64,000 nucleotides of DNA, taken from positions 741-64,740 of the forward strand of contig DIAY01000014.1 in the NCBI GenBank assembly GCA_002414905.1, written 5' to 3'. A program made the translations under genes and the position numbers. The notes under the pieces were generated by a model, which was not told the DNA's origin, searched no databases, and saw nothing but the letters and a program-made list of their open reading frames with translations. The first letter of the stretch is position 1. Each line of letters opens with the position of its first letter. The DNA is from Holophagales bacterium UBA5066 (GTDB lineage: Bacteria > Acidobacteriota > Thermoanaerobaculia > UBA5066). Shown here in pieces: positions 5,752-22,111 of this stretch.

Positions 5752-5808
5752 GAAGGACCCTCCTGAACGACAGGCACCGAAGAGGCGGCAGACACCTGAC
5801 GGAACCGC

Positions 5809-7770: not shown

Positions 7771-7827
7771 GCGGATCTTCGGACTTTACCGGGACCCGGC
7801 CGTTCGCGGGACTAACATCCGCCAATA

Positions 7828-8229
7828 TTGGACGATCCCGACCTCCTGCCGTTGTCCCTCGCCGTCGACGACCTGATCCTCGGCCGGGGAGTGAAGCGCG
7901 GCCGCCACCTCCTTTCACAGGACCTGGAACCGCTCTTCCTCGAGCGTCTGCCGGCTCTCGGATTCACCGAGACGACGGTCGGTACGGTTGTGATCGACGT
8001 GGGCGTCCGCGTCCCCGCGTGGCTCCTCAGCCCCGGACGTGCGGATTTCGGGACCGTCTTCTGGGAGATCTTCACCGACCGGTTCCGGCGGCGGCTCTAC
8101 GGATCGGAGGTCCGGAACGCGAAGGGGGACTGGGATGTGCAGATCCCGCCCTCCTCGACCAGGAGGATCTGGGCCGGGCTCCACCTGAGGGAGAGCTACG
8201 ACCCGTCCCGGCCCATCGGAATGTGCTGA
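7828..8229 (+). CDS. Hypothetical protein (133 aa)
   Basis: Non-low-complexity translation with strongly GC3-biased codons, lying in an otherwise empty 540-nt gap. TTG start (7828) with no obvious SD. No family recognised. Confidence 0.4.
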   Translation: MDDPDLLPLSLAVDDLILGRGVKRGRHLLSQDLEPLFLERLPALGFTETTVGTVVIDVGVRVPAWLLSPGRADFGTVFWEIFTDRFRRRLYGSEVRNAKGDWDVQIPPSSTRRIWAGLHLRESYDPSRPIGMC

Positions 8230-8307
8230 GCCTCGTTTCCGTCTCTTCTACGCTCTTGACGCGGCGCGGCTGGCCCCCTACGGTGTTCGTGCGAGGCGTG
8301 ACGACGG

Positions 8308-8973
8308 ATGGACCAGGAAGAGAAGTCGGAACGGAGCCGGGTGCTGATTCTCGAGGCGGCGCTCGACCTCATCTCGCGACAGGGATACCGCGGGACGAGC
8401 ATCCGCGATATCTCAAAGGCGGCCGGAGTTTCGACCGGCAGCGTCTACCACCACTTCAACGACAAGGAAGAGCTCTTCGACACGCTCCTCTCGCAGTACT
8501 GGAGCGCCATCGAGAGCCCGGACTTCCCGTTCAACCGTGCCCTCGCGAACGGGGCTTTCCCTGACCGCCTCGAGGAGCTCGCCGCGGCGGCCGAGGCGAG
8601 CGTGAGGCTCTGGCAGCGGCACGTCGCGCTCATCTACGTCGACGTCGTCGAGATGCAGGGAACCCACATCCAGCGCTTCTACTCGAGCATGGCGGGCCGT
8701 TTCGACGCGTTCATCCGCCGATACCGGGTGAAGGACGACTTCGAGGCACGGCTCGCTCCCGAAGTCGAGCCCCTGTCGGCCGTCATGCTCGCGAGCCGGA
8801 TCTTCCTCCAGTACTACGCCGTCGAGCTGCTCTTCCGGGTTCCCGACCAGTTCGGCAAGCCCTCGAAGGACGCCATCCGCGACATCGCCGAGATCCTGCG
8901 GCGCGGCATGCTGCGTTCCCCTGCCGACGAGCCCGCCGCGGCCACGACGCTCAAAGATCACCGATCGCGCTGA
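8308..8973 (+). CDS. TetR/AcrR family transcriptional regulator
   Basis: N-terminal HTH RVLILEAALDLISRQGYRGTSIRDISKAAGVSTGSVYHHFNDKEELF. ATG at 8308. The 3' end overlaps the convergent gene ending at 8951 by 23 nt. Confidence 0.9.
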   Translation: MDQEEKSERSRVLILEAALDLISRQGYRGTSIRDISKAAGVSTGSVYHHFNDKEELFDTLLSQYWSAIESPDFPFNRALANGAFPDRLEELAAAAEASVRLWQRHVALIYVDVVEMQGTHIQRFYSSMAGRFDAFIRRYRVKDDFEARLAPEVEPLSAVMLASRIFLQYYAVELLFRVPDQFGKPSKDAIRDIAEILRRGMLRSPADEPAAATTLKDHRSR

Positions 8974-10555
8974 CGAGGCGAGTCCAGAGCTCGCCGCCTC
9001 CGAGGCCGTTCGTCAGGATGACGATTCCCGTGCCGCGTCCCGGCGAGAGCTGGGAGAAGCAGCGGAAGCCGGTGCTGTTGGCGCCGCTGTGGTGAACCAG
9101 ATCCCCGCTCGAGGTCGAGTTCAGCGACCAGCCGAGCCCCCAGTAGACCTCGCGGCCTCTCGCCCTCCCGGGCCGTTCCATCGGCTCCCTCACGTCGACG
9201 CGGACCTCGTGCCGGAGCATCGCGGCGACGGATGAGCGGGAGAGCCCGTGCGGCGCAGAGCCTTCCGGGTCGAGGATCGCGACGAGCAGCCGCGCATAGT
9301 CCTTCGCCGTCGTGACGAGCGAGTAGGCGGCGTTCGCATGCGTGTACCGCGCCCGTGCGAGGAACGTTCCGTCGGCCTTGTGCCCGCTCGCGAGCCGGGG
9401 GTCGAGCGCGGCCGTCCAGACATACGACGTGCTCGCCATCCCGAGGGGAGAAAAGAGCGTTCGCCGGGCGTACCCTTCGATCGGCTCGCCCGTCACCTTC
9501 TCCACGGCCCGCTGCAGCTGGTAGATCGCCTCGCCCGAGTAGCCGAAACGCGAGCCCGGCTCGAACAGGACCGGCAGCGGCCCGTCCCTTTCCTCGCCCC
9601 CCTTTCGCCAGTTCGGAAGGCCGGACGTGTGCGACAGGACCATCCGGGGCGTGATTCGCAGGCGCGCCTCCTGTACGGGCACGAACGGCGGTTCCACGTA
9701 GGCCGAAAGCGGACGGTCGAGGTCGATCTTCCCCTCTTCGACGAGCTTCAGGACGGTGTAGGCGAAGACGGGCTTGGTCATCGAAGCCGCCTCGAAGAGC
9801 GTCTCTGCGGTGACGGGCTCCCCCGTCCTGACGTCGGTCACCCCCCACGACTTCGTAAAGGCGACCTTCCGGTCCCGCACGAGGGCGATCGAAACTCCGG
9901 GGACGTGAAGCTCGGCCATCAGGAGCGGTGTCAGTCTCTCGACCGTCGCGACGGTCGACTCGAAGGAGGGAGCGCGGACCCACCCGGAGGGGTCGATCCG
10001 TTCGAGGGCCATCGCGGCGCCCAGGCGGACGTCCTCGTCCCGGTCGTGGAGCGCCTCGCGCAGCGCGGGGACGGACTCGACGGCACCGGCACCGACGGCA
10101 CCGACGGCACCGAGCGCGTTCGCCGCGCACCAGCGGACGTTCTCCTTCGGGTCGGCCAGCGCACGGACGAGGGCCGGCACAGCGTCGCGCCCCTCCCGCC
10201 CCAGCTTTCCGAGCGCGATGGCCGCGCCCCACCGGACGCTTTCCCTCGCGTCTCCGAGGGCCCGCGAAAGCGCGGGGACGGCGGTGGAACCTATCCGGTG
10301 GAGCGCCTCGGCGGCCTCGCCGGCGACGAACGGGTCCGCGTCGGCCAGGGTCTCGACGAGGGCCGCAACCTTCCCGTCCGCCGGGGCCTCCGAGGCGACG
10401 GCGCGGGCGGGCAGGGCGGCCAGTGCGGGCAGAGTGGTAAGAGTGGTCAGAGTCGTCAGAGTTACGAGAGTCGTGATGGTCACGAGCCTCGCGAGGGCCG
10501 CGCAGGCGACGGAAGCGGGAAGCACCGCGGCGCACCGCTTCAACGAGGCTTTCAT
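8951..10555 (-). CDS. Secreted HEAT-repeat + beta-lactamase-fold serine hydrolase (esterase/PBP-like)
   Basis: Trimmed from listed ORF 8951..11209 to the ATG at 10555, which has SD GGAGGTGAG and lies 2 nt after the upstream stop. Signal-like N-terminus and HEAT repeats (VRWGAAIALGKLG, VRWCAANALGAVG, VRLGAAMALERI). Beta-lactamase motifs are SMTK (SxxK), YSG and HSG. Confidence 0.8.
   Translation of the reverse strand: MKASLKRCAAVLPASVACAALARLVTITTLVTLTTLTTLTTLPALAALPARAVASEAPADGKVAALVETLADADPFVAGEAAEALHRIGSTAVPALSRALGDARESVRWGAAIALGKLGREGRDAVPALVRALADPKENVRWCAANALGAVGAVGAGAVESVPALREALHDRDEDVRLGAAMALERIDPSGWVRAPSFESTVATVERLTPLLMAELHVPGVSIALVRDRKVAFTKSWGVTDVRTGEPVTAETLFEAASMTKPVFAYTVLKLVEEGKIDLDRPLSAYVEPPFVPVQEARLRITPRMVLSHTSGLPNWRKGGEERDGPLPVLFEPGSRFGYSGEAIYQLQRAVEKVTGEPIEGYARRTLFSPLGMASTSYVWTAALDPRLASGHKADGTFLARARYTHANAAYSLVTTAKDYARLLVAILDPEGSAPHGLSRSSVAAMLRHEVRVDVREPMERPGRARGREVYWGLGWSLNSTSSGDLVHHSGANSTGFRCFSQLSPGRGTGIVILTNGLGGGELWTRLVSAIGDL
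10431..10475 (-). repeat. Imperfect 9-bp tandem repeat x5 inside the signal-peptide region of the HEAT/beta-lactamase gene
   Basis: Plus-strand units agagtggta/agagtggtc/agagtcgtc/agagttacg/agagtcgtg encode TITTLVTLTTLTTLTTL. Confidence 0.8.
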
Positions 10556-10557
10556 TC

Positions 10558-11634
10558 TCACCTCCGGGAGGAACCGGGTGCGGCAAGCGGAGCCGGCCCG
10601 GACGGTGGGGCGCGAAGCGGAACTCTCGTGACCCGCGCCGGGCCGAAGGTCTCGGCGTCGAACGCGAACAGGATCGGCAGACCGCCCGTGTGGAGGAAGA
10701 CGACCGGGACGCCGGCGTCGAGGCCGCCTCCGCGGGCCAGTGCGAAGAGGCCGGCCATCGACTTGCCCGTATAGATCGGGTCGAGGAGGAGCCCCTCGAG
10801 CCGCGCACAGGCGAGGATCGCCTCCGTCCCCGACTCGGTCGCGACCCCGTACTCCTCGTGAAACCCGTCGTGGCACTCGAGCGCGCCTGCGGGGACGGGC
10901 GAGTCGATGCCGAGGAGACCGGCGCTCTCGGCGATCAGCTCCGCCGTCCGCTGAACGATCCGGCGGGCGGTGCGCGAGACGCTGATCCCTATGATCCTCG
11001 CGCCGGGGAGGAATAGCCGGGCTCCGAGGTTCAGGCCGGCGAACGTCCCGCACGACCCGACGGCCACCACCACCTGGACCGGCCCCGGGCCGAGCTGGGG
11101 GGCGAGCTCGCGCATCGCGCGGACGTAGCCGAGCGCTCCCGCGCCCGTGCTCCCGCCGATCGGCAACGCGTACGGCCGCCGTCCCTCCGCACGCAGCTCT
11201 CCGACCCATCCGTTCATCGCGGCAGCCAGGGAATCGTTGTCGTCGTCGTCGACGAGATAGCGGAGCTCGGCCCCGTAGAGGACGTCGAGGAGAAGGTTGC
11301 CGCGGGGCCGTGCGAAGTCGGGACCGCCGAGGACGAGCTTCACGTCCAGCCCGAGCTTTCGCGCGGCGGCGGCCGTCATCACCGCGTGGTTCGACTGCGC
11401 GCCGCCGACGGTGACGACGACGTCACACCCCTGCTCGAGGATCGGGGCGAAGTCGTACTCCAGCTTGCGCGCCTTGTTGCCACCCATCGCGAGGCCGGTG
11501 GCGTCGTCCCTCTTTACGAAGAGTTTCGAGAGGCCCAGGTGGGTCGCCAGCCGGGGCGCCTCCTGCAGGGGTGTCGGAAGGTCCGCGAGCGGGACCCTCC
11601 GGACGGCGTCGAGGATCTCGCCTGCGGACTTCAC
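10558..11634 (-). CDS. PLP-dependent ACC deaminase / D-cysteine desulfhydrase family enzyme
   Basis: Family motifs TPLQEAPRL..LFVKRDD, GGNKARKLEY (PLP Lys) and GGSTGAGALGY. GTG start at 11634 with strong SD GAGGAGGGAAG. Confidence 0.85.
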   Translation of the reverse strand: MKSAGEILDAVRRVPLADLPTPLQEAPRLATHLGLSKLFVKRDDATGLAMGGNKARKLEYDFAPILEQGCDVVVTVGGAQSNHAVMTAAAARKLGLDVKLVLGGPDFARPRGNLLLDVLYGAELRYLVDDDDNDSLAAAMNGWVGELRAEGRRPYALPIGGSTGAGALGYVRAMRELAPQLGPGPVQVVVAVGSCGTFAGLNLGARLFLPGARIIGISVSRTARRIVQRTAELIAESAGLLGIDSPVPAGALECHDGFHEEYGVATESGTEAILACARLEGLLLDPIYTGKSMAGLFALARGGGLDAGVPVVFLHTGGLPILFAFDAETFGPARVTRVPLRAPPSGPAPLAAPGSSRR

Positions 11635-11647
11635 GTCGCTTCCCTCC

Positions 11648-12505
11648 TCAGAACCGGGTTGACTTCGCCTCCAGGAATCCGAGGAGCGCCCGGAAGAACG
11701 CGTCGGGCTTCTCGAGGTAGACGACGTGTCCGGACCCCTCGATGGGTTCCCAGCGTGTGTCGCGGAAGACGCCGAGGAGCTTCTTCTGTACCCATGGCGG
11801 GATCGTACGGTCTTCCGCCCCCGGTACGACGAGAACCGGCCCCGGGAAGGCCGCGTAGCCGGCGAGATTGCCGTCGAGCGCCGCGAAGAACGGGTCCTGC
11901 GCGAGCGTGAGCCTGATCAGCGCGTGCGTCTGATCTTTGTATCGGTCGTGAAAACGTGCACGGATCACCGGGAGGTTCGCCTTCATCGCCGAGACGAACT
12001 CCTCCCCGAAAATCTTCTCGTACATGTAATGCGTGTAGAGCTCGAAGACCTCCGGTCCGCTCCTGTAGAAGCGGAGGGAGATCTCCTGGTACATCGAGAA
12101 GAGCTCCTCGTGGGAAAGGAAGATCCCCGAGAGCGTCAACGTGTGGAGGCGCTGGGGGAAGAGACGGGCGACCTCCGCGGCGACGAACCCGCCGTAGGAG
12201 ACGCCGACCGCGTGGACCTTCTGGATCCCCAGGATGTCGAGGACTTTCGGCAGATAGCCTGCGAAGTCCGGGATCGAGTACGGCTCGTCGGGGGAGGACG
12301 ACTGTCCCTGCCCGAGGTAGTCGTAGAGAACGACGTCGTAACGGTCGAGGACACGAGGGAGGACGCCGAACCAGGCCCGCGTATGCATCGCGAGGCCGTT
12401 CAGGAGGCAGACCGCCTCCTTGTCCCCCTTGCCGACGTACTCCCAGCGGATCCGGTGATCCCCTTCCTGGAGAAACCCTTCGCGGTCGGGTGTGATGTCT
12501 GCCAT
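11648..12505 (-). CDS. Alpha/beta-fold serine hydrolase
   Basis: Trimmed from ORF 11648..13288 to the ATG at 12505 (SD GAGGAGG). Nucleophile elbow GVSYGG; C-terminal GSGHVVYLEKPD (catalytic His). Confidence 0.8.
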   Translation of the reverse strand: MADITPDREGFLQEGDHRIRWEYVGKGDKEAVCLLNGLAMHTRAWFGVLPRVLDRYDVVLYDYLGQGQSSSPDEPYSIPDFAGYLPKVLDILGIQKVHAVGVSYGGFVAAEVARLFPQRLHTLTLSGIFLSHEELFSMYQEISLRFYRSGPEVFELYTHYMYEKIFGEEFVSAMKANLPVIRARFHDRYKDQTHALIRLTLAQDPFFAALDGNLAGYAAFPGPVLVVPGAEDRTIPPWVQKKLLGVFRDTRWEPIEGSGHVVYLEKPDAFFRALLGFLEAKSTRF

Positions 12506-12564
12506 GTCACGCCCCTCCTCGGGACAGTCCGGGACCGGTCGCCTGCGTCCGGGCGGTGGAGGCT

Positions 12565-13797
12565 TCAGCCCGCCGGCGTCAGCACGGTGCAGACCGACGC
12601 ACAGACCGGCCCGCCGATGTTGAACGTCGCCGCAGCCCTGGCATTCGGCACCTGGAGCGCCTTCGGGACCTTCCCGAGAAGCTGCCACGCGCACCAGCCC
12701 ACCATCGCGATCCCGGTCGCGCCGATCGGGTGCCCCTTGGCGATGAGACCTCCCGAGGTGTTGATCCCGCATTCGCCATCGACGCGCGCCTTCCCGTCGC
12801 GCCAGTAGCGGGCGCCCTTCCCGGTAACGGCCTTTCCGATCACCTCTGTCCCGATCGCCCCCATGACGCTGAAGCAGTCGTGGACCTCGGCGACATTGAC
12901 GTCGGCAGGCGAGAGACCCGCCCGCCGGTAGGCCGCCGCCATCGCGGCGAGCGCCGCCTTGGGGCGGAGGACGTCGCGTCCCTCCTTCTTGAGCGGGTCG
13001 GTCGCCTGGCCCCAGCCCGCGAGGCGCACGCAGTCGGCCTTCGCCACGCCGAGACGCGAGAGACCCTCCTCCGTGGCGAGGAGCATGCCCGCCCAGCCGT
13101 CGGAAATCTGGGAGCAGTCGTAGGTCTTGAGCGGGAGCCCCTCGACGACGTAGCGGTTGATCCCCTCGATCTTCATCGCCGACTCGAGCGTCACCTGATT
13201 CTTCTGCATCTGCGCGAACGGGTTTTCCCGCGCGTTCTCGTACTCGGCGACCGCAATCGACGCGAGGTCTTCCTCGGTCACGCCCCACTCGTCCATGTAG
13301 GCCTTCATCACCTCGGCGAAGAGGTGCGGGAAGACGAAAACCTTGCCGGGCCGTTCGTCGGGGTGCGAGTAGAGGCCGAGGACCTTTCCGATGAGCTTGC
13401 CGTCCATCTTCCCGTCGGCGTCGCGCATCTTCTCGAAGCCGACGGCGAGGCCGACGTCGCCGTCACCGAGCATCAGCTTCTGCGCGACGGCGAGGATCGC
13501 CTGCCCGCCCGTGGCGCAGGCGTTCTCGACGCTCTCGATCGGCTTGGCGTCGAGTCCTGGCGTCATGGCGAGGAGGCCGGAGAGGAGCCCCTGCTCGTTG
13601 AGGGTCAGGTTGCAGACGGCGCCGACCGTGGCGACGTCGACGGCCGAGCAGTCGGCCTTCACCGAGGAGCAGGTCTCCTCGGCGGCACGCCGGAGAATCT
13701 CGGGAACCGTCATCCCGAGGAGCTTTCCGAACTTCGACTGCTGGTAGGCGGCGATGTAGATCGGCTTCACGAGCTTCCTCCGTTCCGCTCGGGTCAC
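12565..13797 (-). CDS. Thiolase, SCP-x/SCP2-type (acetyl-CoA C-acyltransferase-like)
   Basis: Motifs VENACATGG (nucleophilic Cys), EVHDCFS and SGGLIAKGHPIGATG. GTG start overlaps the upstream stop (GTGA, 13794-13797). Confidence 0.85.
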   Translation of the reverse strand: MTRAERRKLVKPIYIAAYQQSKFGKLLGMTVPEILRRAAEETCSSVKADCSAVDVATVGAVCNLTLNEQGLLSGLLAMTPGLDAKPIESVENACATGGQAILAVAQKLMLGDGDVGLAVGFEKMRDADGKMDGKLIGKVLGLYSHPDERPGKVFVFPHLFAEVMKAYMDEWGVTEEDLASIAVAEYENARENPFAQMQKNQVTLESAMKIEGINRYVVEGLPLKTYDCSQISDGWAGMLLATEEGLSRLGVAKADCVRLAGWGQATDPLKKEGRDVLRPKAALAAMAAAYRRAGLSPADVNVAEVHDCFSVMGAIGTEVIGKAVTGKGARYWRDGKARVDGECGINTSGGLIAKGHPIGATGIAMVGWCAWQLLGKVPKALQVPNARAAATFNIGGPVCASVCTVLTPAG

Positions 13798-14612
13798 TGC
13801 GCCCCAAGCTCGCCCTCGAGCGGGTGGCGGGCGAGAAAGGCGAGGAGATGATCGATTGTCTCGCGCGGCTTCTCCACCACGAGAGCGTGGCCGCTCCCGG
13901 GGACGACGGCGAGCTCGCCGCGCGGGAGGGCCCTTGCGAGGGCTTCCCCGCCGTCACGCGGCATCGCCCGGTCGCCTTCGGCCAGGAGGACGAGGGTCGG
14001 ACAGGTGATCTTCGACAGGAGCGGCGTCACGTCGAGCCCCTCGAGCGCGTCGAGGAGCCCGGCGAGCCCCTCGAACCAGGAGTCGGGGAGGTGCGCCACG
14101 AGGGTACGGCGGGCCGCGATCTCCTTCTCGTGCTCCTCGGCCCACTCCTCGGAGAACGCGAAGGCCGAGATCAGGTCATAAACCTTCTCGCGTGGACCGC
14201 CGGCGAGCGCTTCGCGACAGGCCACGGACATCTCGCGGGCTTCGGCCCACATCTCCGCGGAGACGCGGTCGGCAACCGTCATCGCGACCAGGGTCGCGAC
14301 GCGGTCCGGGGCGAGGGCCGCCAGGTGCAGGCCCGCGAAGGCACCGTAGCTCGTCCCGGCCACGTGGCACGTCGCGATGCCGAGGTGATCGAGGAGGCTC
14401 AGGAGGTCCTCGGCGTGGCCCGGGAACGCCGCGCGAGGGATCCCGGGCGAGCGCAGCTGCCCGCGGAAATCGCAGCGGACCACACTGAAGCTTTCGGCGA
14501 GCGCCGGGACGAGGTCATCCCACGCGGTGAAGCTCATCATCCCGCCGTTCAGGAGGAGGAGCGTCGCGCCGCGGCCTTCCACCTGGTGCGCGAGGACGTG
14601 AGGCGTCTTCAA
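13794..14612 (-). CDS. Alpha/beta-fold serine hydrolase
   Basis: Motifs LLLLNGG, nucleophile elbow GTSYGA and GSGHALVVEKP. TTG start overlaps the upstream stop (TTGA, 14609-14612). Confidence 0.8.
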   Translation of the reverse strand: MKTPHVLAHQVEGRGATLLLLNGGMMSFTAWDDLVPALAESFSVVRCDFRGQLRSPGIPRAAFPGHAEDLLSLLDHLGIATCHVAGTSYGAFAGLHLAALAPDRVATLVAMTVADRVSAEMWAEAREMSVACREALAGGPREKVYDLISAFAFSEEWAEEHEKEIAARRTLVAHLPDSWFEGLAGLLDALEGLDVTPLLSKITCPTLVLLAEGDRAMPRDGGEALARALPRGELAVVPGSGHALVVEKPRETIDHLLAFLARHPLEGELGAQ

Positions 14613-16150
14613 GCGCCCCCCCGTTCCGCGAGGTACCCGTCCTTCAGCTCTCCCTTGACGACCTTGCCGTACGCCGTTCTGGGGAGGGCGTCGGTGAACA
14701 CGACCTCCCTCGGGAGCTTGTAGCGGGCGAGCCGCGCCTCGGCAAACGCGAGGAGCCCCTCTTTCGTAAGGACCTCGCCCGGCCGGAGGACGACGAACGC
14801 GACGCCGATCTCGCCCCAGATCGGATCGGGGACTCCGACGACGGCCGCATCCTGGACGGACGGATGGAGCAGGAGCTCTCCCTCGATCTCGGCGGGATAG
14901 ACGTTCACGCCCCCCGAGATGAGCATGTCCTTGCGCCGCCCGGCGATCGTGAAGAAGCCGTCCCCGTCCCTGCGCGCGAGGTCGCCGGTGTGGAAGAAGC
15001 CTTCGTCGTCGAGCGCGGCGGCCGTGGCGGGGCGGTTCTGCCAGTAGCCCTTCGAGACGTGCGGTCCGCGCAGGCAGAGCTCGCCCACCTCTCCCACCGG
15101 CACCTCGTGTCCCGCCTCGTCGACGAGGCGGGCGTCGGTCATCATGAGCGGCCGCCCGATCGAGCCCTTCTTCGCAACCGACTCCTCGACGGACATCGCG
15201 AAGCAGTTCACGCCCACCTCGGTCAGGCCGTATCCCTGCTTGAAGACGATTCCCCGCTTCTGGTACGCGTCGATCAGGTAGAGCGGGAGCGGCGCGCCGC
15301 CGCTGATGAGCCAGCGGATCGAGGAAAGGTCAGCTGTTTCGAACGACGGGTGCTCGAGGAGCAGCTTCCAGATCGTCGGGACGCCGAGGACGACCGTGCA
15401 ACGCTCTTTCGCAACCGTCGCCCAGATCTCGGCCGCGTCGAAGCCGGCGTGGAGGACGATCGTTCCGCCCGCGGCGAGGATCGGCACCAGGAAGGCGCCG
15501 AGCCCGCCCGCGTGATAGAGCGGCGTGAAGACGGGACTCACGTCGGCTTCCGAAAGACCCCAGCAGACGGCCGTGTTCCAGCCGTTCCAGGCCGTCATCC
15601 GGTGGGGGACCATGACGCCCTTCGGCTTTCCCGTCGTCCCGCTGGTGTAGAGGAGCGCGTGGAGGTCCTCCCCGTCGCACCGCGTCCTCTCGAACGGGGC
15701 CTCGGGGAGGGCGGAAAGCTCGGCGACCCAGAAAAGGTCTCCGGCCGTGGCGGGCGTATCGAGGGCGATCCCGAGCGACACCGCCGATTCCGCACGCAGA
15801 GCGTCCGCGATCCCGGTGAACTCTTCCCCGTAGACCAGGGCCGCAAGGCCCGCGTCCCGGGCGATGTAAGCCAGCTCGTGCGGCGTCAGCCTCGTCCCGA
15901 GCGGAACGAGGATGATCCCCGTCTTGGCCGCGGCGAAGAAGAGGTCGACGTACTCGACGCGGTTGTGGGCAAGAAGGCCGATCCGCTCCCCTTTCGCGAG
16001 GCCCAGCCGGTCGCGCAGGAGCGCCGCAGCCCGTTCTGCTCTCGCGTTCAGCTCGCCGTAGGTGAAGCGCTCGCCGGTCGGGACGAAGACGAGCGCCGTC
16101 GTCCCGGGCGAGAGACGGGCGCGCTCCCCGAGGACGTCGGCGTGGATCAC
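14609..16150 (-). CDS. AMP-dependent acyl-CoA synthetase/ligase
   Basis: Trimmed from ORF 14609..16258 to the GTG at 16150, which overlaps the upstream stop (GTGA, 16147-16150). Motifs YTSGTTGKPKGV, GYGLTE, TGDLARRDGDGFFTIAGRRKDMLISGGVNVYPAEIE, PRTAYGKV. Confidence 0.85.
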   Translation of the reverse strand: MIHADVLGERARLSPGTTALVFVPTGERFTYGELNARAERAAALLRDRLGLAKGERIGLLAHNRVEYVDLFFAAAKTGIILVPLGTRLTPHELAYIARDAGLAALVYGEEFTGIADALRAESAVSLGIALDTPATAGDLFWVAELSALPEAPFERTRCDGEDLHALLYTSGTTGKPKGVMVPHRMTAWNGWNTAVCWGLSEADVSPVFTPLYHAGGLGAFLVPILAAGGTIVLHAGFDAAEIWATVAKERCTVVLGVPTIWKLLLEHPSFETADLSSIRWLISGGAPLPLYLIDAYQKRGIVFKQGYGLTEVGVNCFAMSVEESVAKKGSIGRPLMMTDARLVDEAGHEVPVGEVGELCLRGPHVSKGYWQNRPATAAALDDEGFFHTGDLARRDGDGFFTIAGRRKDMLISGGVNVYPAEIEGELLLHPSVQDAAVVGVPDPIWGEIGVAFVVLRPGEVLTKEGLLAFAEARLARYKLPREVVFTDALPRTAYGKVVKGELKDGYLAERGGA

Positions 16151-17115
16151 GGCGCGGCTTCCCCGACGGCGACCGGATTCGGGACGGCCTCGGCCGGCGC
16201 GTCCGGCGCAGGCCCGGCGAGGAGCTTCCCGAGAGCCTCCCCGAAGGCCGCCGGGCACTCCTGCTGGGGAACGTGGCCGCAGCGCGGCAGCTCCGTCAGG
16301 CGGGCGCGGGGCACCACGGCGAGCATCCTCCCGGCGTAGGAGAGGGGCATCATCCGGTCCGAGGTACCCCAGACGACGTCGACCGGCACGGTCAGCTCGG
16401 CGAGGCGCCCTTCCAGGACGTACCTTTCCATCCCCTCGCTCGCGGCGGCGAGCCGGGCGATCGGCCCATTCGCGGCCTCGCGCACGACGTCGTCGAGGAC
16501 GAAATCGGGGACACGGATCGAGCCCGGGTCGCGAAGGGCCTCGATGGTCTTCCGCGCCTCGAACCGGTCCTTCGGCCGGAGCGTCAGCCCTTCCGCTACG
16601 TGCGTCAGCGGGCCACCGTTGACGAGAACGATCCGATCGACCCGTTCCGGGTGCTCCCTCGCCCAGAGGCAGGCGAGCCAGGCGCCGAGGGAATTGCCGA
16701 CGATCGTCACCTTCTCTTTCGGCGCCGTCTCGTCGAGGACGGCCGAGAGCCCCGCGAGGAGCGTTTCGACCGGAAGCGGTCCCTTCTCCGGCGCGCTGTC
16801 GCCGTGGCCCGCGAGGTCGGGGATGACGAGCGTCCTCCCGGGAAGCAGCTTCGGCACGACGAGCGACCAGGACGCCGCCTGGTCCCCCGCGCCGTGGAGA
16901 AGAACGAGAGCGGGTCCGGTCCCTCCGTTGAAGACGGTCTGCGGGCCGACGGGCGACGCGATCACCGACTTCGACAGCCCCGCGGAGCGAAGCGCCCGCC
17001 GGCCCGACGCCGCGTACATGGCGAGGGGCCTCATCCGCGCGATGAGGAAGACGACGATCCCCGCCAGAACGAGAAGAACGGCAGCGGCGAGGAGGAGCTT
17101 CGCGGGTCGATTCAT
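16147..17115 (-). CDS. Membrane-anchored alpha/beta-fold serine hydrolase
   Basis: N-terminal TM LLLAAAVLLVLAGIVVFLIA. Motifs LVLLHGAGD, GNSLGA and CGHVPQQE. ATG at 17115 with SD GGAGGTG. Confidence 0.8.
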   Translation of the reverse strand: MNRPAKLLLAAAVLLVLAGIVVFLIARMRPLAMYAASGRRALRSAGLSKSVIASPVGPQTVFNGGTGPALVLLHGAGDQAASWSLVVPKLLPGRTLVIPDLAGHGDSAPEKGPLPVETLLAGLSAVLDETAPKEKVTIVGNSLGAWLACLWAREHPERVDRIVLVNGGPLTHVAEGLTLRPKDRFEARKTIEALRDPGSIRVPDFVLDDVVREAANGPIARLAAASEGMERYVLEGRLAELTVPVDVVWGTSDRMMPLSYAGRMLAVVPRARLTELPRCGHVPQQECPAAFGEALGKLLAGPAPDAPAEAVPNPVAVGEAAP

Positions 17116-17146
17116 ACGTTCACCTCCACGCCGCGGCTGGCGGACC

Positions 17147-18139
17147 TCAGGTCATCCGGAACGCGACGCCGGCCTGGTTGTACCCGACACCAGAGCCGAT
17201 CATGACGACGAGGTCGCCCTTTTTCACCTTCCCCTGCTCGAGGGCGTCGTCGAGGGCCATCGGGATGCAGGCCGAGCCGGTGTAGCCCCACTTCTCCATG
17301 ATCGTGTGAGCCTTTTCCACGGGAATACCGAGGTCCTCCATGACGAGGTCGATGGAGGGCTTGCGCACCTGGGTGAAGATGATCTGGTCGACGTCGGCGA
17401 AGGTGAAGCCGCCTTCCTTCGCGAGGCGCCTCGCAAGGCGAGGCCACCCTTCGTGGTTGATTTCAGGCGGGTAGCGCTCGGCCATCTTCACCGTCGTCCG
17501 CCCCGCCGCCACGTTCTCGACCGTCGCCGGCTCGGCCGTGCCGCCCGCGAAGATGCCCCAGTGCTTCGCGTACTCTCCGCCCGCCTGCATCGCCGAGTTG
17601 ATGAAGCCCGGCTCGTCGCCCGCCTGGAGGACGGCCGCGCCGGCCCCGTCGCCATAGAAGAAGACCATCGGATCGTTCGGATCGGCCAGCTTGTGCATCA
17701 GGTAGACGCCGACGACGAGGACGTTCTTCAGCGCCGGGTTCGTCGCGAGAAGGCCGGCACCGGTGGCAAGCCCCGTGGGGAACGACGCGCAGGCGCAGCC
17801 GACGTCGAACGTCCCGGCGTTCTTCGCGCCGAGCTTGTGCTGGAGGACGACCGAGGTCGCCGGGGTGACGTAGTCGGGCGAGTCGGTGCCGAGAATGATC
17901 AGGTCGATGTCGGCGGCCGTGAGCCCCGCCCTTTCGATCGCCTGCCTCGCCGCGGGAAGCGCCACGTCGGACGTGGCCCAATCCTCCGGGGCGTAGAAGC
18001 GGGTCCGGATCCCGCTCGAGGCCTCCATCTTGTCGACGAAGTCGGGGAACTGCGGCCATCGCGCCTTCAGGGCGGCGTTCGGGACCTCGATCGGCGGGAC
18101 GAACCGCCCGGTCGAGACGATGCGTGCGTATCGAGCCAT
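17147..18139 (-). CDS. KAS III (FabH)-like thiolase-fold enzyme with non-canonical active site
   Basis: Trimmed from ORF 17147..18688 to the ATG at 18139 (SD GGAAGGAA). FabH-like over its whole length (FDVGCACASF, FYGDGAGAAVL). The positions aligned with FabH His244 and Asn274 are Thr and Tyr. Confidence 0.8.
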   Translation of the reverse strand: MARYARIVSTGRFVPPIEVPNAALKARWPQFPDFVDKMEASSGIRTRFYAPEDWATSDVALPAARQAIERAGLTAADIDLIILGTDSPDYVTPATSVVLQHKLGAKNAGTFDVGCACASFPTGLATGAGLLATNPALKNVLVVGVYLMHKLADPNDPMVFFYGDGAGAAVLQAGDEPGFINSAMQAGGEYAKHWGIFAGGTAEPATVENVAAGRTTVKMAERYPPEINHEGWPRLARRLAKEGGFTFADVDQIIFTQVRKPSIDLVMEDLGIPVEKAHTIMEKWGYTGSACIPMALDDALEQGKVKKGDLVVMIGSGVGYNQAGVAFRMT

Positions 18140-18150
18140 CGCGTTCCTTC

Positions 18151-18933
18151 CTACGTCCCCGTGACGAGGCCGCCGTCGACGGAGAGGACGGTGCCGTGGA
18201 CGAAGGTCGCCTGGTCCGACGCGAGCCAGACGTAGGCGTTTGCAATGTCGCCGGGCTCTCCCATCCGGCCGATCGGCGTGTGGGCGACCATTCCCTCGAG
18301 GACTTTGGCGGGCATCGCCTTGAGGATCTCGGTCGCGACGAAGCCGGGGCAGACCGCGTTCACGCGGATCCGGAACTTGCCCAGCTCGCGTGCCCAGGTC
18401 TTCGTCATGCCGATGACGCCGGCCTTCGTGGCGACGTAGTTCGTCTGCCCGAAGTTGCCGTAGAGACCGACGACCGACGAGGCATTGAGAATCACGCCGC
18501 CGCCGCCCGCGATCATGTGGGGCGTCACGGCGCGGGTGCAGAGAAACACCCCCTTGAGGTTCACGCCGATCACGGCATCCCACTGTTCGTCGGTCATCGT
18601 GGTCTGGACGGCCCCGTCCTTGTACTTGACCAGCTGGGCGTCCCGGACGATCCCGGCGTTGTTGACGAGGACGTCGACGCGCCCCCATTTCGCCACGACG
18701 GCCTCGACGGCCTGCGCGACCGAGGCCGGGTCGGCGACATTCACTTTGGCGGCGAGGGCGTCAGGGGCTCCGGCGGCCTTCAGGTCGTCCACGAGGGCCG
18801 CGGCATCCACGACGTCCCAGGCGGCGACCTTCGCCCCTTCCTTTGCGAACCTCAGGGCCGTGGCCCGACCGATCCCGGCGGCGGCGCCGGTGACGATGAC
18901 GATGCGCCCGGCGAGTCCTGTCTCGATGCTCAT
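18151..18933 (-). CDS. Short-chain dehydrogenase/reductase, 3-oxoacyl reductase (FabG-like)
   Basis: Trimmed from ORF 18151..19512 to the ATG at 18933 (SD GGAAGGAGAG). Motifs TGAAAGIGRA, NNAG, YVATKAG, PGFVAT. Confidence 0.85.
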   Translation of the reverse strand: MSIETGLAGRIVIVTGAAAGIGRATALRFAKEGAKVAAWDVVDAAALVDDLKAAGAPDALAAKVNVADPASVAQAVEAVVAKWGRVDVLVNNAGIVRDAQLVKYKDGAVQTTMTDEQWDAVIGVNLKGVFLCTRAVTPHMIAGGGGVILNASSVVGLYGNFGQTNYVATKAGVIGMTKTWARELGKFRIRVNAVCPGFVATEILKAMPAKVLEGMVAHTPIGRMGEPGDIANAYVWLASDQATFVHGTVLSVDGGLVTGT

Positions 18934-19001
18934 GACGAAGTCTCTCCTTCCGCCGGCCCGGAGGCGGCGGTCGTCGCCCTGCGCGGCGCGGGGCGGGAAG
19001 T

Positions 19002-19028
19002 CCGGCGGGCGGGAGACCCGCCCGCCGG
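19002..19028 (-). terminator. Perfect 12-bp GC hairpin between the TonB-dependent receptor and the downstream operon (terminator/attenuator candidate)
   Basis: ccggcgggcggg-aga-cccgcccgccgg, 25 nt after the receptor stop (19053). No clear U-tract follows on the minus strand. Confidence 0.4.
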
Positions 19029-19052
19029 AGGCGTGACGAGAGGGGACGGGAC

Positions 19053-21961: not shown

Positions 21962-21979
21962 ATACCGAACACTCGGTAT
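21962..21979. promoter_or_regulatory. Palindrome ATACCGA-ACAC-TCGGTAT upstream of the TonB-dependent receptor (operator candidate)
   Basis: 7-bp perfect arms with a 4-nt spacer, in a locally AT-richer stretch about 117 nt upstream of the receptor ATG (21845). Confidence 0.25.
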
Positions 21980-22111
21980 GTTTTCCACAAAGGGATTCTG
22001 AGAACGCCGGACGGGACCTGTCAAGGGAAATCGGAGCGGCAATCGAAACGGCCGAGCCGGTCGTTTCCGGCCCTGGCTTCGCTGGTCTCCTCCGCCCGTC
22101 CTCGGATTCCT

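What the first reader, a model, noticed from the sequence alone, without database searches (positions are those of the whole stretch)
8951..18933. Tightly coupled 9-gene CoA-type lipid operon of unclear pathway, next to a TonB-dependent receptor and a TetR gene
Nine minus-strand genes run from 18933 down to 8951 with spacings from -4 to +59 nt. The overlaps are GTGA at 16147-50 and 13794-97 and TTGA at 14609-12, with a 2-nt gap at 10555/10558.

Gene order:
- FabG-like SDR
- KAS III-like enzyme
- TM-anchored Ser hydrolase
- AMP-dependent ligase
- Ser hydrolase
- SCP-x-type thiolase
- Ser hydrolase
- ACC-deaminase/D-Cys-desulfhydrase-family PLP enzyme
- secreted HEAT + beta-lactamase-fold hydrolase

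The operon has no ACP, acyl-CoA dehydrogenase or enoyl-CoA hydratase, so it is neither a standard FAS/PKS cluster nor a standard beta-oxidation set. The sub-order KAS III-like, alpha/beta hydrolase, AMP-ligase plus an SDR recalls oleABCD (olefin/beta-lactone synthesis). However, all three hydrolases have GxSxG Ser nucleophiles, whereas OleB uses an Asp nucleophile, and the KAS III-like protein lacks the His/Asn. I therefore do not call it Ole.

The position directly downstream of a TonB-dependent receptor (19053..21845), with a convergent TetR gene overlapping its 3' end by 23 nt, would also fit import and catabolism of an esterified or lipidic substrate.
Basis: partly seen in the sequence, partly recalled or inferred. 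Interest (0 to 1): 0.65.

Follow-up and report, generated by a model that had tools for sequence, protein, structure and literature searches.

The report
Conserved ester-uptake operon with odd ketosynthase
This is a real, repressor-controlled gene cluster that most likely imports ester-linked hydroxy-acid compounds and breaks them down. It is built around an unstudied relative of a fatty-acid-synthesis enzyme, and the same module recurs from archaea to many bacterial phyla.

Summary
The nine minus-strand genes, their spacings and all domain calls are confirmed. Comparative genomics splits the unit:

- **Conserved core:** SDR, KAS III-like, membrane-anchored hydrolase, CoA ligase, hydrolase, SCP2-type thiolase and hydrolase, plus the TonB-dependent receptor and a TetR gene. 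It is conserved across Acidobacteriota (at least 572 matches in species-representative genomes).
- **Add-on:** the PLP enzyme and the HEAT/beta-lactamase gene occur only in close relatives, sometimes inverted.

The KAS III-like protein keeps Cys117 but has Thr and Tyr where FabH has His and Asn. It belongs to an uncharacterised subfamily also found in ACP-less archaea and in Thermotogae, Caldisericia, Myxococcota and Gemmatimonadota.

In all these lineages it sits beside alpha/beta hydrolases, a CoA ligase or CoA transferase, an SDR or MaoC hydratase, and an importer (TonB receptor, LIV-type ABC, MFS). Some clusters add a bona fide extracellular PHA depolymerase or a PETase-like polyesterase.

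This argues for uptake and catabolism of esterified (R)-3-hydroxy acids, and against an Ole-type or biosynthetic role.

A conserved promoter and palindromic operator lie upstream of the receptor.

The chemistry of the KAS-like enzyme and the substrate remain unknown.

The parts
21995..22024 (-). Sigma-70-like promoter, TTGACA-N18-CAGAAT, upstream of the receptor gene
   Evidence: It is the only promoter-like hit in 7500-24500. Both hexamers are conserved in 10 of 11 aligned relatives while the flanks vary.
21962..21979 (.). Palindrome ATACCGA-N4-TCGGTAT, the probable TetR operator, 16-33 nt downstream of the -10 element
   Evidence: It occurs once in the 64 kb window, against 0.04 expected by chance. 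The surrounding GAAAACATACCGAG(T/C)GTTCGGTAT is invariant in 11 relatives. The same ACCGA-N4(-8)-TCGGT motif lies directly upstream of the TetR gene in loci where TetR leads the cluster. TetR binding is inferred, not shown.
19053..21845 (-). TonB-dependent outer-membrane receptor (CarboxypepD_reg N-domain plus barrel)
   Evidence: Pfam. It lies next to the enzyme genes in 31 of 44 distant acidobacterial loci. Other phyla have different TonB receptors or ABC/MFS/SSF importers in its place.
19001..19029 (-). Perfect 13-bp GC hairpin directly after the receptor stop codon, with no T-run
   Evidence: An equivalent strong hairpin, different in sequence in each clade, is present in all 17 relatives folded. 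Its role (attenuator, processing site or mRNA stabiliser) is inferred.
18151..18933 (-). Classical SDR, FabG-like and probably NAD-dependent; proposed (R)-3-hydroxyacyl(-CoA) dehydrogenase
   Evidence: Best solved relatives are 4nbw (3.8e-93) and the MFE-2 (3R)-hydroxyacyl-CoA dehydrogenase 2et6 (6e-67). An Asp ends beta-2 (VAAWDVVD), read from the sequence. Present in 37 of 44 distant loci.
17147..18139 (-). KAS III-fold protein of the Cys/Thr/Tyr ('FTQ...GYTGSAC') subfamily; the signature gene of the module
   Evidence: AlphaFold model pLDDT 95, TM about 0.9 to FabH, BioZ and PqsD. It is 70-95% identical across Acidobacteriota.
16147..17115 (-). Alpha/beta hydrolase with an N-terminal membrane anchor (Ser-Asp-His), translationally coupled to the ligase
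   Evidence: Its best solved relative is the full-length P. aeruginosa PlaF 6i8w (6.6e-16). It stays paired with the ligase even where the pair is transcribed divergently.
14609..16150 (-). AMP-forming acyl-CoA ligase
   Evidence: Best solved relatives are 8weu/8wev (about 1e-108) and FadD13. CoA-transferases take its place in Geothrix, Caldisericia, Fervidobacterium and Sulfolobales.
13794..14612 (-). Soluble alpha/beta hydrolase (GTSYG)
   Evidence: Present in 29 of 44 distant loci.
12565..13797 (-). SCP2-type thiolase with Cys93, the HDCF motif and the GHP motif
   Evidence: motifs read from the translation. Present in 31 of 44 distant loci.
11648..12505 (-). Soluble alpha/beta hydrolase (GVSYG); carboxylesterase or polyesterase-like
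   Evidence: Best solved relatives are Est1, MGS-M2, the RPA1511 polyesterase and a PHB depolymerase. Present in 33 of 44 distant loci.
10558..11634 (-). PLP enzyme of the D-cysteine desulfhydrase/ACC deaminase family; a lineage-specific add-on, not part of the conserved module
   Evidence: Present in 0 of 44 distant loci, and inverted together with Bla in L009, L014, L015 and L037.
8951..10555 (-). Secreted HEAT-repeat plus beta-lactamase-fold serine hydrolase (SMTK); a lineage-specific add-on
   Evidence: Present in 0 of 44 distant loci.
8308..8973 (+). TetR-family regulator, convergent with the operon here and leading it in other lineages
   Evidence: A TetR gene lies within 10 kb in 34 of 44 distant loci.

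Best explanation
The region is a TetR-repressed uptake-and-catabolism unit for carboxylic esters of hydroxy acids. The most likely substrates are (R)-3-hydroxyalkanoate esters or oligomers, such as fragments of polyhydroxyalkanoates or other 3-hydroxyacyl esters.

**Proposed sequence of events**
1. The TonB-dependent receptor brings the ester or oligomer across the outer membrane.
2. The membrane-anchored hydrolase Hyd1 and the soluble hydrolases Hyd2 and Hyd3 cleave the ester bonds.
3. The ligase, translationally coupled to Hyd1, traps the released acid as a CoA thioester.
4. The NAD-type SDR oxidises the (R)-3-hydroxyacyl-CoA to the 3-ketoacyl-CoA.
5. The SCP2-type thiolase cleaves it to acetyl-CoA plus a shorter acyl-CoA.

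No acyl-CoA dehydrogenase or crotonase is needed, because the substrate already carries the 3-hydroxyl.

**The KAS III-like protein**
It keeps the acyl-accepting Cys but not the His/Asn pair needed for malonyl decarboxylation. It therefore most likely forms an acyl-S-enzyme from a CoA thioester or an oxo-ester. From there it would carry out a non-decarboxylative acyl transfer or thiolytic step, independent of ACP. Its exact reaction is unknown.

**Shown**
- Gene content, residues and fold.
- Conservation of the neighbourhood.
- The conserved promoter and palindrome.

**Inferred**
- The direction of the pathway (catabolic).
- Stereochemistry and substrate class.
- TetR binding to the palindrome.
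- The role of the KAS-like enzyme.

The PLP enzyme and the HEAT/beta-lactamase hydrolase are a separate neighbouring pair found only in this lineage.
For: **1. Conserved neighbourhood in Acidobacteriota**
- At least 572 KAS relatives were confirmed in species-representative genomes; the 80 best are 70-95% identical.
- In 44 distant loci with full flanks: SDR 37, Lig 38, Hyd1 34, TetR 34, Hyd3 33, Thl 31, receptor 31, Hyd2 29.

**2. The same module in other phyla, with an interchangeable importer**
- Archangium: TetR-KAS-ligase-hydrolase.
- Caldisericia: hydrolase x2, KAS, SDR, LIV-type ABC, double TetR, CoA-transferase, thiolase.
- Gemmatimonadaceae: TonB receptor, ligase, hydrolase, KAS, SSF, MaoC, PHB-type esterase.
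- Thermofilaceae, Fervidobacterium and Sulfolobales: ABC importer plus KAS plus hydrolases plus ligase or CoA-transferase plus SDR/thiolase.
- In 23 metagenome loci with at least 4 kb on each side: hydrolase 22, CoA activation 21, importer 21, SDR or MaoC 18.
- An MFS transporter ends the Gemmatimonadota-type clusters.

**3. The ligase can be replaced by CoA-transferases**
Its job is therefore CoA-thioester formation.

**4. Evidence pointing to (R)-3-hydroxyacyl-CoA**
- The SDR and the (R)-specific MaoC hydratase both recur in these clusters, and some clusters carry only one of them.
- The SDR resembles FabG-type enzymes and the MFE-2 (3R)-dehydrogenase.
- It has the acidic residue typical of NAD-dependent SDRs (read from the sequence; established SDR cofactor rule).

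**5. Links to polyesters**
- L103:1951-3024 scores 294.5 bits against the NCBIfam model for the extracellular short-chain PHA depolymerase catalytic domain (cut-off 150), inside a KAS cluster. L090, L105 and L121 have homologues.
- A secreted PETase-like polyesterase follows the L098 cluster.
- Hyd3's nearest solved relatives include polyesterases and a PHB depolymerase.

**6. KAS-like enzyme**
- Cys117, Gln257 and Tyr286 are invariant and Thr256 is at least 90% conserved in 86 diverse family members.
- The family occurs in archaea, which lack ACP (PMC3533463).

**7. Regulation**
A single promoter and a palindrome footprint lie upstream of the receptor. The same palindrome lies upstream of tetR in other lineages.
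Against: - No PHA depolymerase, MaoC or inner-membrane transporter was found in the window or in the acidobacterial flanks.
- The PHA link rests on about three independent non-acidobacterial clusters.
- All hydrolases score only as generic alpha/beta hydrolases. Their matches (PcaD, AcoC-like, HsaD, intracellular PHA depolymerase) are all below curated cut-offs.
- The ligase's best solved relatives include a feruloyl-CoA synthetase, and LIV-type binding proteins also bind aromatic acids. An aromatic ester substrate is therefore not excluded.
- SDR stereospecificity and cofactor preference are inferred, not measured.
- The pathway as written does not need the KAS-like enzyme, yet that gene is the most conserved one. 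An essential part of the chemistry is therefore missing from the model.
- TonB-dependent proteins of this architecture are reported, from my own knowledge, to act in export in Myxococcus (Oar).
- The strong hairpin after the receptor gene could be a terminator. In that case the receptor and the enzyme genes may be separate transcripts.
Confidence: 0.5

Rival explanations
1. The module catabolises aromatic esters such as hydroxycinnamates. Esterases would release ferulate- or coumarate-type acids. The ligase would make the enoyl-CoA, a hydratase and the SDR would convert it to the beta-ketoacyl-CoA, and the thiolase or the KAS-like enzyme would split off acetyl-CoA.
For: - The ligase's best solved relatives are 8weu/8wev, a fatty-acyl-CoA synthase and a feruloyl-CoA synthetase, at about 1e-108.
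- MaoC hydratases occur in many sister clusters.
- LIV-type binding proteins in sister clusters also resemble aromatic-acid binders.
- The esterase in the Sulfolobales cluster hits the BD-FAE family.
Against: - The acidobacterial cluster has no hydratase, so an enoyl acid could not be processed by the cluster alone.
- Family-I acetyl-CoA-type CoA-transferases replace the ligase in anaerobes.
- A bona fide PHA depolymerase sits in sister clusters.
- No aromatic ring-processing genes are nearby.
- No paper linking KAS III-like genes to hydroxycinnamate clusters was found.
Confidence: 0.13
2. The module scavenges or remodels membrane lipid. The PlaF-like anchored hydrolase would strip acyl chains from imported or endogenous lipids. 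The ligase would activate them, and the Cys-only KAS-like enzyme would act as an acyl-CoA transacylase that passes them on for re-use.
For: - Hyd1's best solved relative is the membrane-anchored phospholipase A1 PlaF, aligned over its full length including the anchor (PMC9132575).
- The Hyd1-ligase pair is invariant.
- The ligase resembles the long-chain FadD13.
- FabH needs only its Cys for acyl-CoA transacylation (established FabH mechanism).
Against: - The PlaF match is weak (6.6e-16), and C-C hydrolases score almost as well.
- Short-chain-type CoA-transferases and LIV/MFS/SSF importers in sister clusters fit small soluble acids better.
- The family occurs in archaea with isoprenoid ether lipids and no ACP.
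- The SDR and thiolase point to degradation rather than re-use.
Confidence: 0.12
3. The cluster makes a product in an Ole-like or beta-lactone-type pathway. The KAS would condense two acyl chains, the SDR would reduce the product, the ligase would close a beta-lactone and a hydrolase would decarboxylate it. The receptor would export the product.
For: - The four protein families match OleA/B/C/D, and the KAS-hydrolase-ligase order recalls oleABC.
- Four loci carry tandem KAS copies, as in lipstatin-type pairs.
Against: - The KAS lacks His and Asn. It matches OleA structures only at about 1e-18, against 1e-46 for FabH.
- The SDR is a 260-aa classical type.
- CoA-transferases substitute for the ligase, which is impossible for a lactone synthetase.
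- The module is always next to importers, including ABC systems with binding proteins.
Confidence: 0.03
4. The module degrades lactone or acyl-homoserine-lactone-type signals or other small lactones. The hydrolases would act as lactonases, followed by CoA activation and cleavage of the opened 3-oxo or 3-hydroxy acid, analogous to the 3-oxoadipate branch.
For: - The hydrolases' best family matches are 3-oxoadipate enol-lactonases, below cut-off.
- The logic hydrolase, then CoA activation, then thiolase mirrors PcaD-PcaIJ-PcaF (established pathway).
Against: - The scores are well below the equivalog cut-offs.
- TonB-dependent uptake and extracellular polyesterases are not expected for small diffusible lactones.
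- No amidase or ring-cleavage genes are nearby.
Confidence: 0.06

Closest known systems
FabH / KAS III (also BioZ, PqsD)
   Same: Same fold: model TM about 0.9, E 1e-46 to FabH. The nucleophilic Cys sits in the same FDV..C.A motif.
   Different: - His244 and Asn274 are replaced by Thr and Tyr throughout the subfamily.
- It scores below the NCBIfam FabH cut-off (194.9 against 249).
- It occurs in ACP-less archaea.
- Its genomic context is catabolic and importer-linked, not a fab cluster.
Peroxisome-type D-specific beta-oxidation (MFE-2 dehydrogenase/hydratase-2 plus SCPx thiolase)
   Same: An SDR-type dehydrogenase related to the MFE-2 (3R)-dehydrogenase, an SCP2-type thiolase with the HDCF motif, and MaoC hydratases in sister clusters.
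   Different: - There is no acyl-CoA oxidase or dehydrogenase.
- The proteins are separate, not fused.
- The set is combined with esterases, importers and a KAS-like enzyme.
Polyhydroxyalkanoate utilisation systems (extracellular depolymerase, oligomer hydrolase, 3-hydroxybutyrate dehydrogenase, CoA activation, thiolase)
   Same: The same enzyme logic. A depolymerase above its curated cut-off sits in sister clusters, and the hydrolases give weak matches to PHA depolymerases.
   Different: - The window itself has no depolymerase.
- No known PHA system includes a KAS III-like gene or a dedicated TonB receptor, according to the literature searches, which found none.
OleABCD / beta-lactone pathways
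   Same: The same four protein superfamilies in a similar order.
   Different: The catalytic residues, SDR type, ligase replaceability and importer association all disagree (see the membership test).
Archaeal thiolase/HMG-CoA synthase/DUF35 complex and PhlACB
   Same: A KAS III-fold protein is encoded in the same cluster as an SCP2-type thiolase. The thiolase matches 6esq_A at 2.5e-42 and PhlC at 6e-13.
   Different: - There is no DUF35 gene.
- The KAS and the thiolase are not adjacent.
- The thiolase is present in only 4 of 23 clusters of the wider family.
- The KAS matches HMGCS only at 8e-10.
P. aeruginosa PlaF (membrane-bound phospholipase A1)
   Same: Hyd1 has the same length, a single N-terminal anchor and the alpha/beta fold. 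PlaF is its best solved match (PMC9132575).
   Different: - Similarity is low.
- The more positively charged flank lies after the Hyd1 anchor, so its topology may be the reverse of PlaF's (read from the sequence).
- The genomic context is different.

Membership tests
OleABCD olefin/beta-lactone system | OleA-type condensing enzyme with the Cys-His-Asn triad | tested here: not met
   Cys is present, but His is replaced by Thr256 and Asn by Tyr286. OleA structures match only at about 1e-18.
OleABCD olefin/beta-lactone system | OleB-type hydrolase with an Asp nucleophile (haloalkane-dehalogenase-like) | tested here: not met
   All three hydrolases carry G-x-S-x-G (GNSLG, GTSYG, GVSYG), read from the translations.
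OleABCD olefin/beta-lactone system | The ANL enzyme acts as a beta-lactone synthetase, so it cannot be replaced by a CoA-transferase | tested here: not met
   Sister clusters carry family-I or family-III CoA-transferases in place of the ligase.
FabH (KAS III) of type II fatty-acid synthesis | Cys-His-Asn catalytic triad | tested here: not met
FabH (KAS III) of type II fatty-acid synthesis | Score above the curated family cut-off | tested here: not met
   NF006829 scores 194.9 against a cut-off of 249; TIGR00747 scores 171.3 against 292.1.
FabH (KAS III) of type II fatty-acid synthesis | Works with ACP and lies in a fab context | tested here: not met
   There is no ACP or fab gene in the cluster. 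Family members occur in archaea that lack ACP. Biochemical use of ACP cannot be tested here.
Standard beta-oxidation set (FadD/E/B/A) | Acyl-CoA dehydrogenase and crotonase-type hydratase present | tested here: not met
   Neither is among the nine genes or the conserved core.
SCP2-type thiolase (the Thl protein) | Nucleophilic Cys, HDCF acid/base motif, GHP motif | tested here: met
   Cys93 (ENACATGG), HDCF and KGHPIGATG are read from the translation. The protein matches Pfam Thiolase_C_1 and SCP2-thiolase structures.
Thiolase/HMGCS/DUF35 or PhlACB complexes | A DUF35 scaffold protein encoded alongside | tested here: not met
   There is no DUF35 domain in the window cluster or in the examined loci.
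TetR-controlled regulon | TetR HTH protein plus a palindromic operator at the regulated promoter | tested here: met
   TetR_N domain. A unique palindrome lies downstream of the -10 element, is invariant in 11 relatives, and recurs upstream of tetR in other clades. Binding itself cannot be tested here.
Polyhydroxyalkanoate utilisation locus | Extracellular PHA depolymerase encoded in the cluster | tested here: not met
   None was found in the window or in acidobacterial loci. It is met only in Gemmatimonadota-type sister clusters (L103 at 294.5 bits against a cut-off of 150).
Polyhydroxyalkanoate utilisation locus | Enzymes active on 3-hydroxyalkanoate oligomers, monomers and CoA esters | not testable with these tools
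   This needs enzyme assays.
TonB-dependent transporter | Beta-barrel domain with an N-terminal extension | tested here: met
   CarboxypepD_reg, OMP_b-brl_4 and TonB_dep_Rec_b-barrel. The TonB box and the direction of transport were not tested.

The most novel reading that the evidence does not exclude
The Cys/Thr/Tyr KAS III-like proteins would be a new functional class of thiolase-fold enzymes.
- They would cleave the oxo-ester bonds of CoA-activated (R)-3-hydroxyalkanoate oligomers by thiolysis, through an acyl-S-Cys intermediate.
- The products would be 3-hydroxyacyl-CoA units, formed without spending ATP or a CoA transfer on each monomer.
- The module would then be an energy-conserving oligo-ester catabolic pathway, independent of ACP and shared by Archaea and at least eight bacterial phyla.
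Probability: 0.12. Interest if true: 0.85.

Novelty: new variant of a known kind. Interest (0 to 1): 0.62.

Why it matters
- **An unassigned, widespread module.** It is present in at least 572 acidobacterial matches in species-representative genomes. It also occurs in Gemmatimonadota, Myxococcota, Caldisericia, Thermotogae, Chloroflexi-type lineages and several archaeal orders.
- **Misleading annotation.** Its signature enzyme is uniformly annotated 'ketoacyl-ACP synthase III', although it cannot be one. Assigning its function would correct a large annotation error.
- **Carbon turnover.** It would probably add a missing step to how environmental and wastewater bacteria consume polyester-derived or other esterified hydroxy acids. 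That bears on carbon turnover in activated sludge and soils, and on bioplastic degradation.
- **Enzymology.** It would enlarge the known chemistry of the thiolase superfamily.
- **Testability.** Cultured carriers exist (Geothrix fermentans, Archangium violaceum, Fervidobacterium riparium), and there is a well-defined operator and repressor pair.

Tried and rejected
- **Ole or beta-lactone reading:** rejected on residues, SDR type, ligase replaceability and importer context.
- **Genuine FabH or BioZ:** rejected on the catalytic triad, the curated cut-offs and the archaeal distribution.
- **Thiolase/HMGCS/DUF35-type complex:** there is no DUF35 gene, and the thiolase is not a constant partner (4 of 23 loci).
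- **Upstream sigma factor, 3-hydroxyacyl-CoA dehydrogenase and TPR genes as part of the unit:** they are conserved only in close relatives.
- **Solved-structure searches:** the TetR search gave only HTH-level similarity. The search with an ABC binding protein gave no ligand clue.
- **Family scan of 92 cluster hydrolases:** only generic matches, none above a cut-off.
- **Fold search of the KAS model:** nothing closer than FabH, BioZ or PqsD.
- **Longer proteins as possible domain fusions:**
  - P0124 looks like a KAS fused to half a hydrolase, probably through a deletion or frameshift.
  - P0210 is a true FabH fused to a lipoyl domain.
  - Neither is informative.
- **Rfam:** no RNA family in the window or in the leader.
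- **Literature searches:** seven searches found no characterisation of this subfamily or cluster (one further search failed on syntax). The library covers open-access papers only, so absence is not proof.
- **4nbw as an NADH-dependent FabG homologue:** this rests on my own recollection. The paper could not be retrieved.

Full report
**1. Observation**

The window has about 69% G+C. Re-deriving the genes from the minus-strand ORFs gives nine genes:

| Gene | Coordinates |
|---|---|
| SDR | 18151-18933 |
| KAS | 17147-18139 |
| Hyd1 | 16147-17115 |
| Lig | 14609-16150 |
| Hyd2 | 13794-14612 |
| Thl | 12565-13797 |
| Hyd3 | 11648-12505 |
| PLP | 10558-11634 |
| Bla | 8951-10555 |

- Gaps between successive genes are 11, 31, -4, -4, -4, 59, 13 and 2 nt. 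Most starts have purine-rich tracts just upstream.
- An independent gene call on an identical public contig gives the same genes. The one difference is a thiolase start 27 nt further in.
No protein reaches an equivalog cut-off.
- The TonB-dependent receptor is at 19053-21845. The convergent TetR gene at 8308-8973 overlaps Bla by 23 nt.

**2. Source**

- Identical KAS proteins occur on wastewater and activated-sludge contigs.
- The closest genomes are acidobacterial MAGs labelled Holophagales or Thermoanaerobaculia (95% KAS identity).

**3. What is conserved**

A scan of one genome per species confirmed at least 572 KAS relatives. The 80 best are 70-95% identical and almost all come from Acidobacteriota. 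The groups include Holophagales, Thermoanaerobaculia, Vicinamibacterales, Bryobacterales, Solibacteraceae and the cultured Geothrix fermentans.

I mapped all window proteins onto the 80 fetched loci and counted the 44 distant loci that have full flanks.

| Gene | Present in (of 44) |
|---|---|
| Lig | 38 |
| SDR | 37 |
| Hyd1 | 34 |
| TetR | 34 |
| Hyd3 | 33 |
| Thl | 31 |
| Receptor | 31 |
| Hyd2 | 29 |
| PLP | 0 |
| Bla | 0 |

- KAS, Thl and SDR are the most conserved proteins (median 71-73% identity). The hydrolases and the receptor are at 44-58%.
- Hyd1 and Lig always travel together. In Vicinamibacterales they form a divergent pair.
- PLP and Bla occur only in relatives whose KAS is at least 85% identical. 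In L009, L014, L015 and L037 the pair lies in the opposite orientation, and in L013 Bla alone was detected on that strand. They are therefore a neighbouring module, not part of the core.
- The sigma-factor, 3-hydroxyacyl-CoA-dehydrogenase and TPR genes upstream of the receptor are only locally syntenic.

**4. The KAS III-like protein**

- It aligns to FabH over its whole length at about 30-35% identity. Cys117 is in register with FabH Cys112.
- FabH's PHQAN motif is FTQVR here, and GNTSAAS is GYTGSAC. His244 becomes Thr256 and Asn274 becomes Tyr286.
- An exhaustive representative search shows the acidobacterial proteins are a tight group within a larger subfamily (32-57% identity) that shares these motifs. 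True FabH sequences in the same alignment keep H and N.
- In 86 diverse members, Cys117, Tyr146, Asp164, Asn228, Trp232, Gln257 and Tyr286 are invariant. Thr256 and Cys291 are at least 90% conserved.
- The AlphaFold model is confident (pLDDT 95.3). It superposes on FabH, BioZ and PqsD with TM about 0.9, and there is no closer solved relative.
- Sources name the family only 'ketoacyl-ACP synthase III'.
- Members occur in Thermofilaceae, Sulfolobales, Njordarchaeia, Odinarchaeota and Thaumarchaeota. Archaea are held to lack ACP (PMC3533463).
- From the established FabH mechanism, loss of His and Asn removes malonyl decarboxylation but not acyl-Cys formation.
- I therefore infer an ACP-independent, non-decarboxylative acyl-transfer or thiolytic role.

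**5. Neighbourhoods outside Acidobacteriota**

| Lineage (locus) | Gene order |
|---|---|
| Archangium violaceum (L088) | SDR, then divergently TetR-KAS-ligase...hydrolase |
| Caldisericia (L089) | hydrolase, hydrolase, KAS, SDR, five-gene LIV-type ABC importer, double TetR, acetyl-CoA-type CoA-transferase, thiolase |
| Gemmatimonadaceae (L090) | TonB receptor, ligase, hydrolase, LacI, KAS, SSF symporter, MaoC, PHB-type esterase, ligase, thioesterase |
| Thermofilaceae (L091) | ligase, two hydrolases, ABC importer with the KAS embedded in it; an SDR upstream |
| Fervidobacterium (L092) | KAS, double TetR, CoA-transferase, ABC importer whose last permease is fused to a hydrolase |
| Sulfolobales (L093) | esterase, ABC importer, KAS, family-III CoA-transferase, hydrolase, regulator, SCP2-type thiolase, SDR |

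- Geothrix-type acidobacterial loci also use the ABC plus CoA-transferase version.
- I tagged 80 further metagenome loci with family seeds. Of the 23 with at least 4 kb on each side of the KAS:
  - 22 have a hydrolase
  - 21 have CoA activation
  - 21 have an importer (8 TonB, 13 ABC)
  - 18 have an SDR or MaoC
  - 11 have a TetR gene
  - 4 have a thiolase
- Gemmatimonadota-type clusters end in an MFS transporter.

Three conclusions follow.
- A module that always sits beside an importer, of whatever class suits the cell envelope, is catabolic.
- Because CoA-transferases replace the ligase, that step is thioester formation.
- An (R)-type dehydrogenase and an (R)-specific hydratase both recur in these clusters, and some clusters carry only one of them. 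Both are ways of feeding an (R)-3-hydroxyacyl-CoA into general metabolism.

**6. Substrate clues**

- In L103 the cluster is TetR, hydrolase, depolymerase, ligase, SDR, TonB receptor, hydrolase, KAS, ligase, MaoC. The depolymerase scores 294.5 bits on the NCBIfam model for the extracellular short-chain PHA depolymerase catalytic domain, against a cut-off of 150.
- L090, L105 and L121 carry homologues.
- A secreted PETase-like polyesterase with Ig domains follows the L098 cluster.
- Hyd3's nearest solved relatives are carboxylesterases, the RPA1511 polyesterase and a PHB depolymerase.
- Hyd1's nearest is the membrane-anchored phospholipase PlaF (PMC9132575).
- The SDR is closest to 4nbw (3.8e-93), to other FabG-type enzymes and to the (3R)-hydroxyacyl-CoA dehydrogenase of MFE-2.
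- The SDR also has an Asp at the end of beta-2. Under the established SDR cofactor rule this indicates NAD and hence an oxidative role.
- The thiolase has the full SCP2-thiolase motif set.

These lines together favour esters or oligomers of (R)-3-hydroxy acids. They explain why no acyl-CoA dehydrogenase or crotonase is present.

The weaknesses are as follows.
- There is no depolymerase in the window or in acidobacterial flanks.
- The hydrolases give only generic scores.
- The ligase resembles a feruloyl-CoA synthetase.
- The model gives the most conserved gene, the KAS, no necessary job.

**7. Regulation**

- The only sigma-70-like match in 7500-24500 is TTGACA-N18-CAGAAT at 22024-21995, upstream of the receptor.
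- Sixteen nucleotides downstream of the -10 element lies ATACCGAACACTCGGTAT (21962-21979). It is unique in the window, against 0.04 expected.
- In an alignment of 11 relatives the -35 and -10 hexamers are conserved in 10. A 24-nt block containing the palindrome is invariant in all 11, while the flanks drift.
- Where tetR leads the cluster, the same ACCGA-N4(-8)-TCGGT motif sits just upstream of tetR.
- This is a classical repressor-operator footprint. It ties the receptor to the TetR gene.
- No second copy of the palindrome precedes the SDR gene. The enzyme genes are therefore probably read through from the receptor promoter.
- Between the receptor and the SDR gene there is a perfect 13-bp GC hairpin without a T-run. 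An equivalent hairpin, different in sequence in each clade, exists in all 17 relatives folded.
- The hairpin may attenuate transcription or stabilise the receptor message. Whether it terminates is open.
- No Rfam family matches.

**8. Comparison with known systems**

- The module is not Ole (residues, SDR type, ligase replaceability, importers).
- It is not FabH, BioZ or PqsD (triad, cut-offs, context).
- It is not standard beta-oxidation.
- It is not a thiolase/HMGCS/DUF35 complex.
- It works most like a combination of a polyester or oligo-ester utilisation locus with the D-specific, peroxisome-type half of beta-oxidation, placed under TetR control.
- The new elements are the Cys/Thr/Tyr KAS III-like subfamily and the very wide conservation of its association with esterases, CoA activation and importers.
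- Seven literature searches found no description of either. The library covers only open-access papers.

**9. Verdict**

- I rate the catabolic, importer-linked ester-to-CoA reading as likely (about 0.75).
- The (R)-3-hydroxyalkanoate substrate class is plausible (about 0.4-0.5).
- A PHA-oligomer substrate for this particular acidobacterial version is weaker (about 0.3).
- The role of the KAS-like enzyme is unresolved.
- Novelty: a new variant of a known kind of system, with an uncharacterised enzyme subfamily at its centre.

Noticed in passing
window 8951-11634; L009, L013-L015, L037: In the window the PLP/beta-lactamase pair is appended to the operon, with gaps of 13 nt and 2 nt. In L009, L014, L015 and L037 the same pair lies inverted, on the strand of the TetR gene; in L013 only Bla was detected there. 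A local inversion has therefore moved it between transcription units.
   Followed up: partly
window 10430-10462 and 10087-10113: Two 9-nt tandem repeats lie inside the Bla gene. One encodes the TLTTLTTLTTL run in the unusually long N-terminal signal region. The other encodes a GAVGAVGAGAV linker between HEAT repeats.
   Followed up: no
window 21858-21873: A short stem, GGGCG...CGCCC, lies immediately 5' of the receptor's Shine-Dalgarno sequence (GGGAGGA). It is conserved in all 11 aligned relatives. It may modulate translation initiation.
   Followed up: no
window 21887-21933: Two terminator-like hairpins with T-rich tails lie inside the roughly 140-nt leader of the receptor gene. They are poorly conserved in relatives, and no Rfam family matches.
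   Followed up: partly
L019, L021, L024, L043: These acidobacterial loci carry two tandem copies of the KAS-like gene, 73% and 76-78% identical to the window protein.
   Followed up: no
L092:15186-16892: In Fervidobacterium the last LIV-type permease of the cluster is fused to an alpha/beta hydrolase. This suggests that hydrolysis is physically coupled to transport, and it echoes the membrane anchor of Hyd1.
   Followed up: no
L067:7428-8609, L089:15659-16894, L092:9027-10214: The versions of the module that use an ABC importer and a CoA-transferase have a double-length TetR protein of about 395-411 aa. Two TetR_N stretches were scored in L067. The window's single TetR best matches the double-domain Mce3R structure, but only over its N-terminal third.
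   Followed up: no
window 22112-24849: A 3-hydroxyacyl-CoA dehydrogenase gene (3HCDH type, 23971-24849) overlaps by 4 nt a TPR/zinc-ribbon-like gene (22112-23974), directly upstream of the receptor promoter. They are conserved only in close relatives.
   Followed up: partly
window 60185-64000: One open reading frame that runs off the window end carries both an aminotransferase class I/II domain and an archaeal-type PEP carboxylase (PEPcase_2) domain. It is either a fusion or two genes in the same frame.
   Followed up: no
window 2824-5808: A 994-aa protein combines FAD-linked oxidase domains with a 4Fe-4S dicluster domain, resembling a glycolate or D-lactate dehydrogenase fusion.
   Followed up: no
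window 28308-30410, 46123-47409, 48230-50140, 53133-54833: The window holds several peptidases (M13, C1-like, M1) and an MFS/POT-type transporter. This suggests a proteolytic lifestyle for the organism.
   Followed up: no
P0124 (metagenome protein): This 412-aa protein joins the first 255 residues of a KAS family member to the C-terminal half of an alpha/beta hydrolase. It is probably a deletion or frameshift across the adjacent KAS and hydrolase genes, not a true fusion.
   Followed up: partly
L100, L151, L169, L172: Some clusters of the wider family are preceded by regulators of about 1070 aa with TPR and BTAD domains (scanned in L100, L151 and L169) instead of TetR.
   Followed up: no
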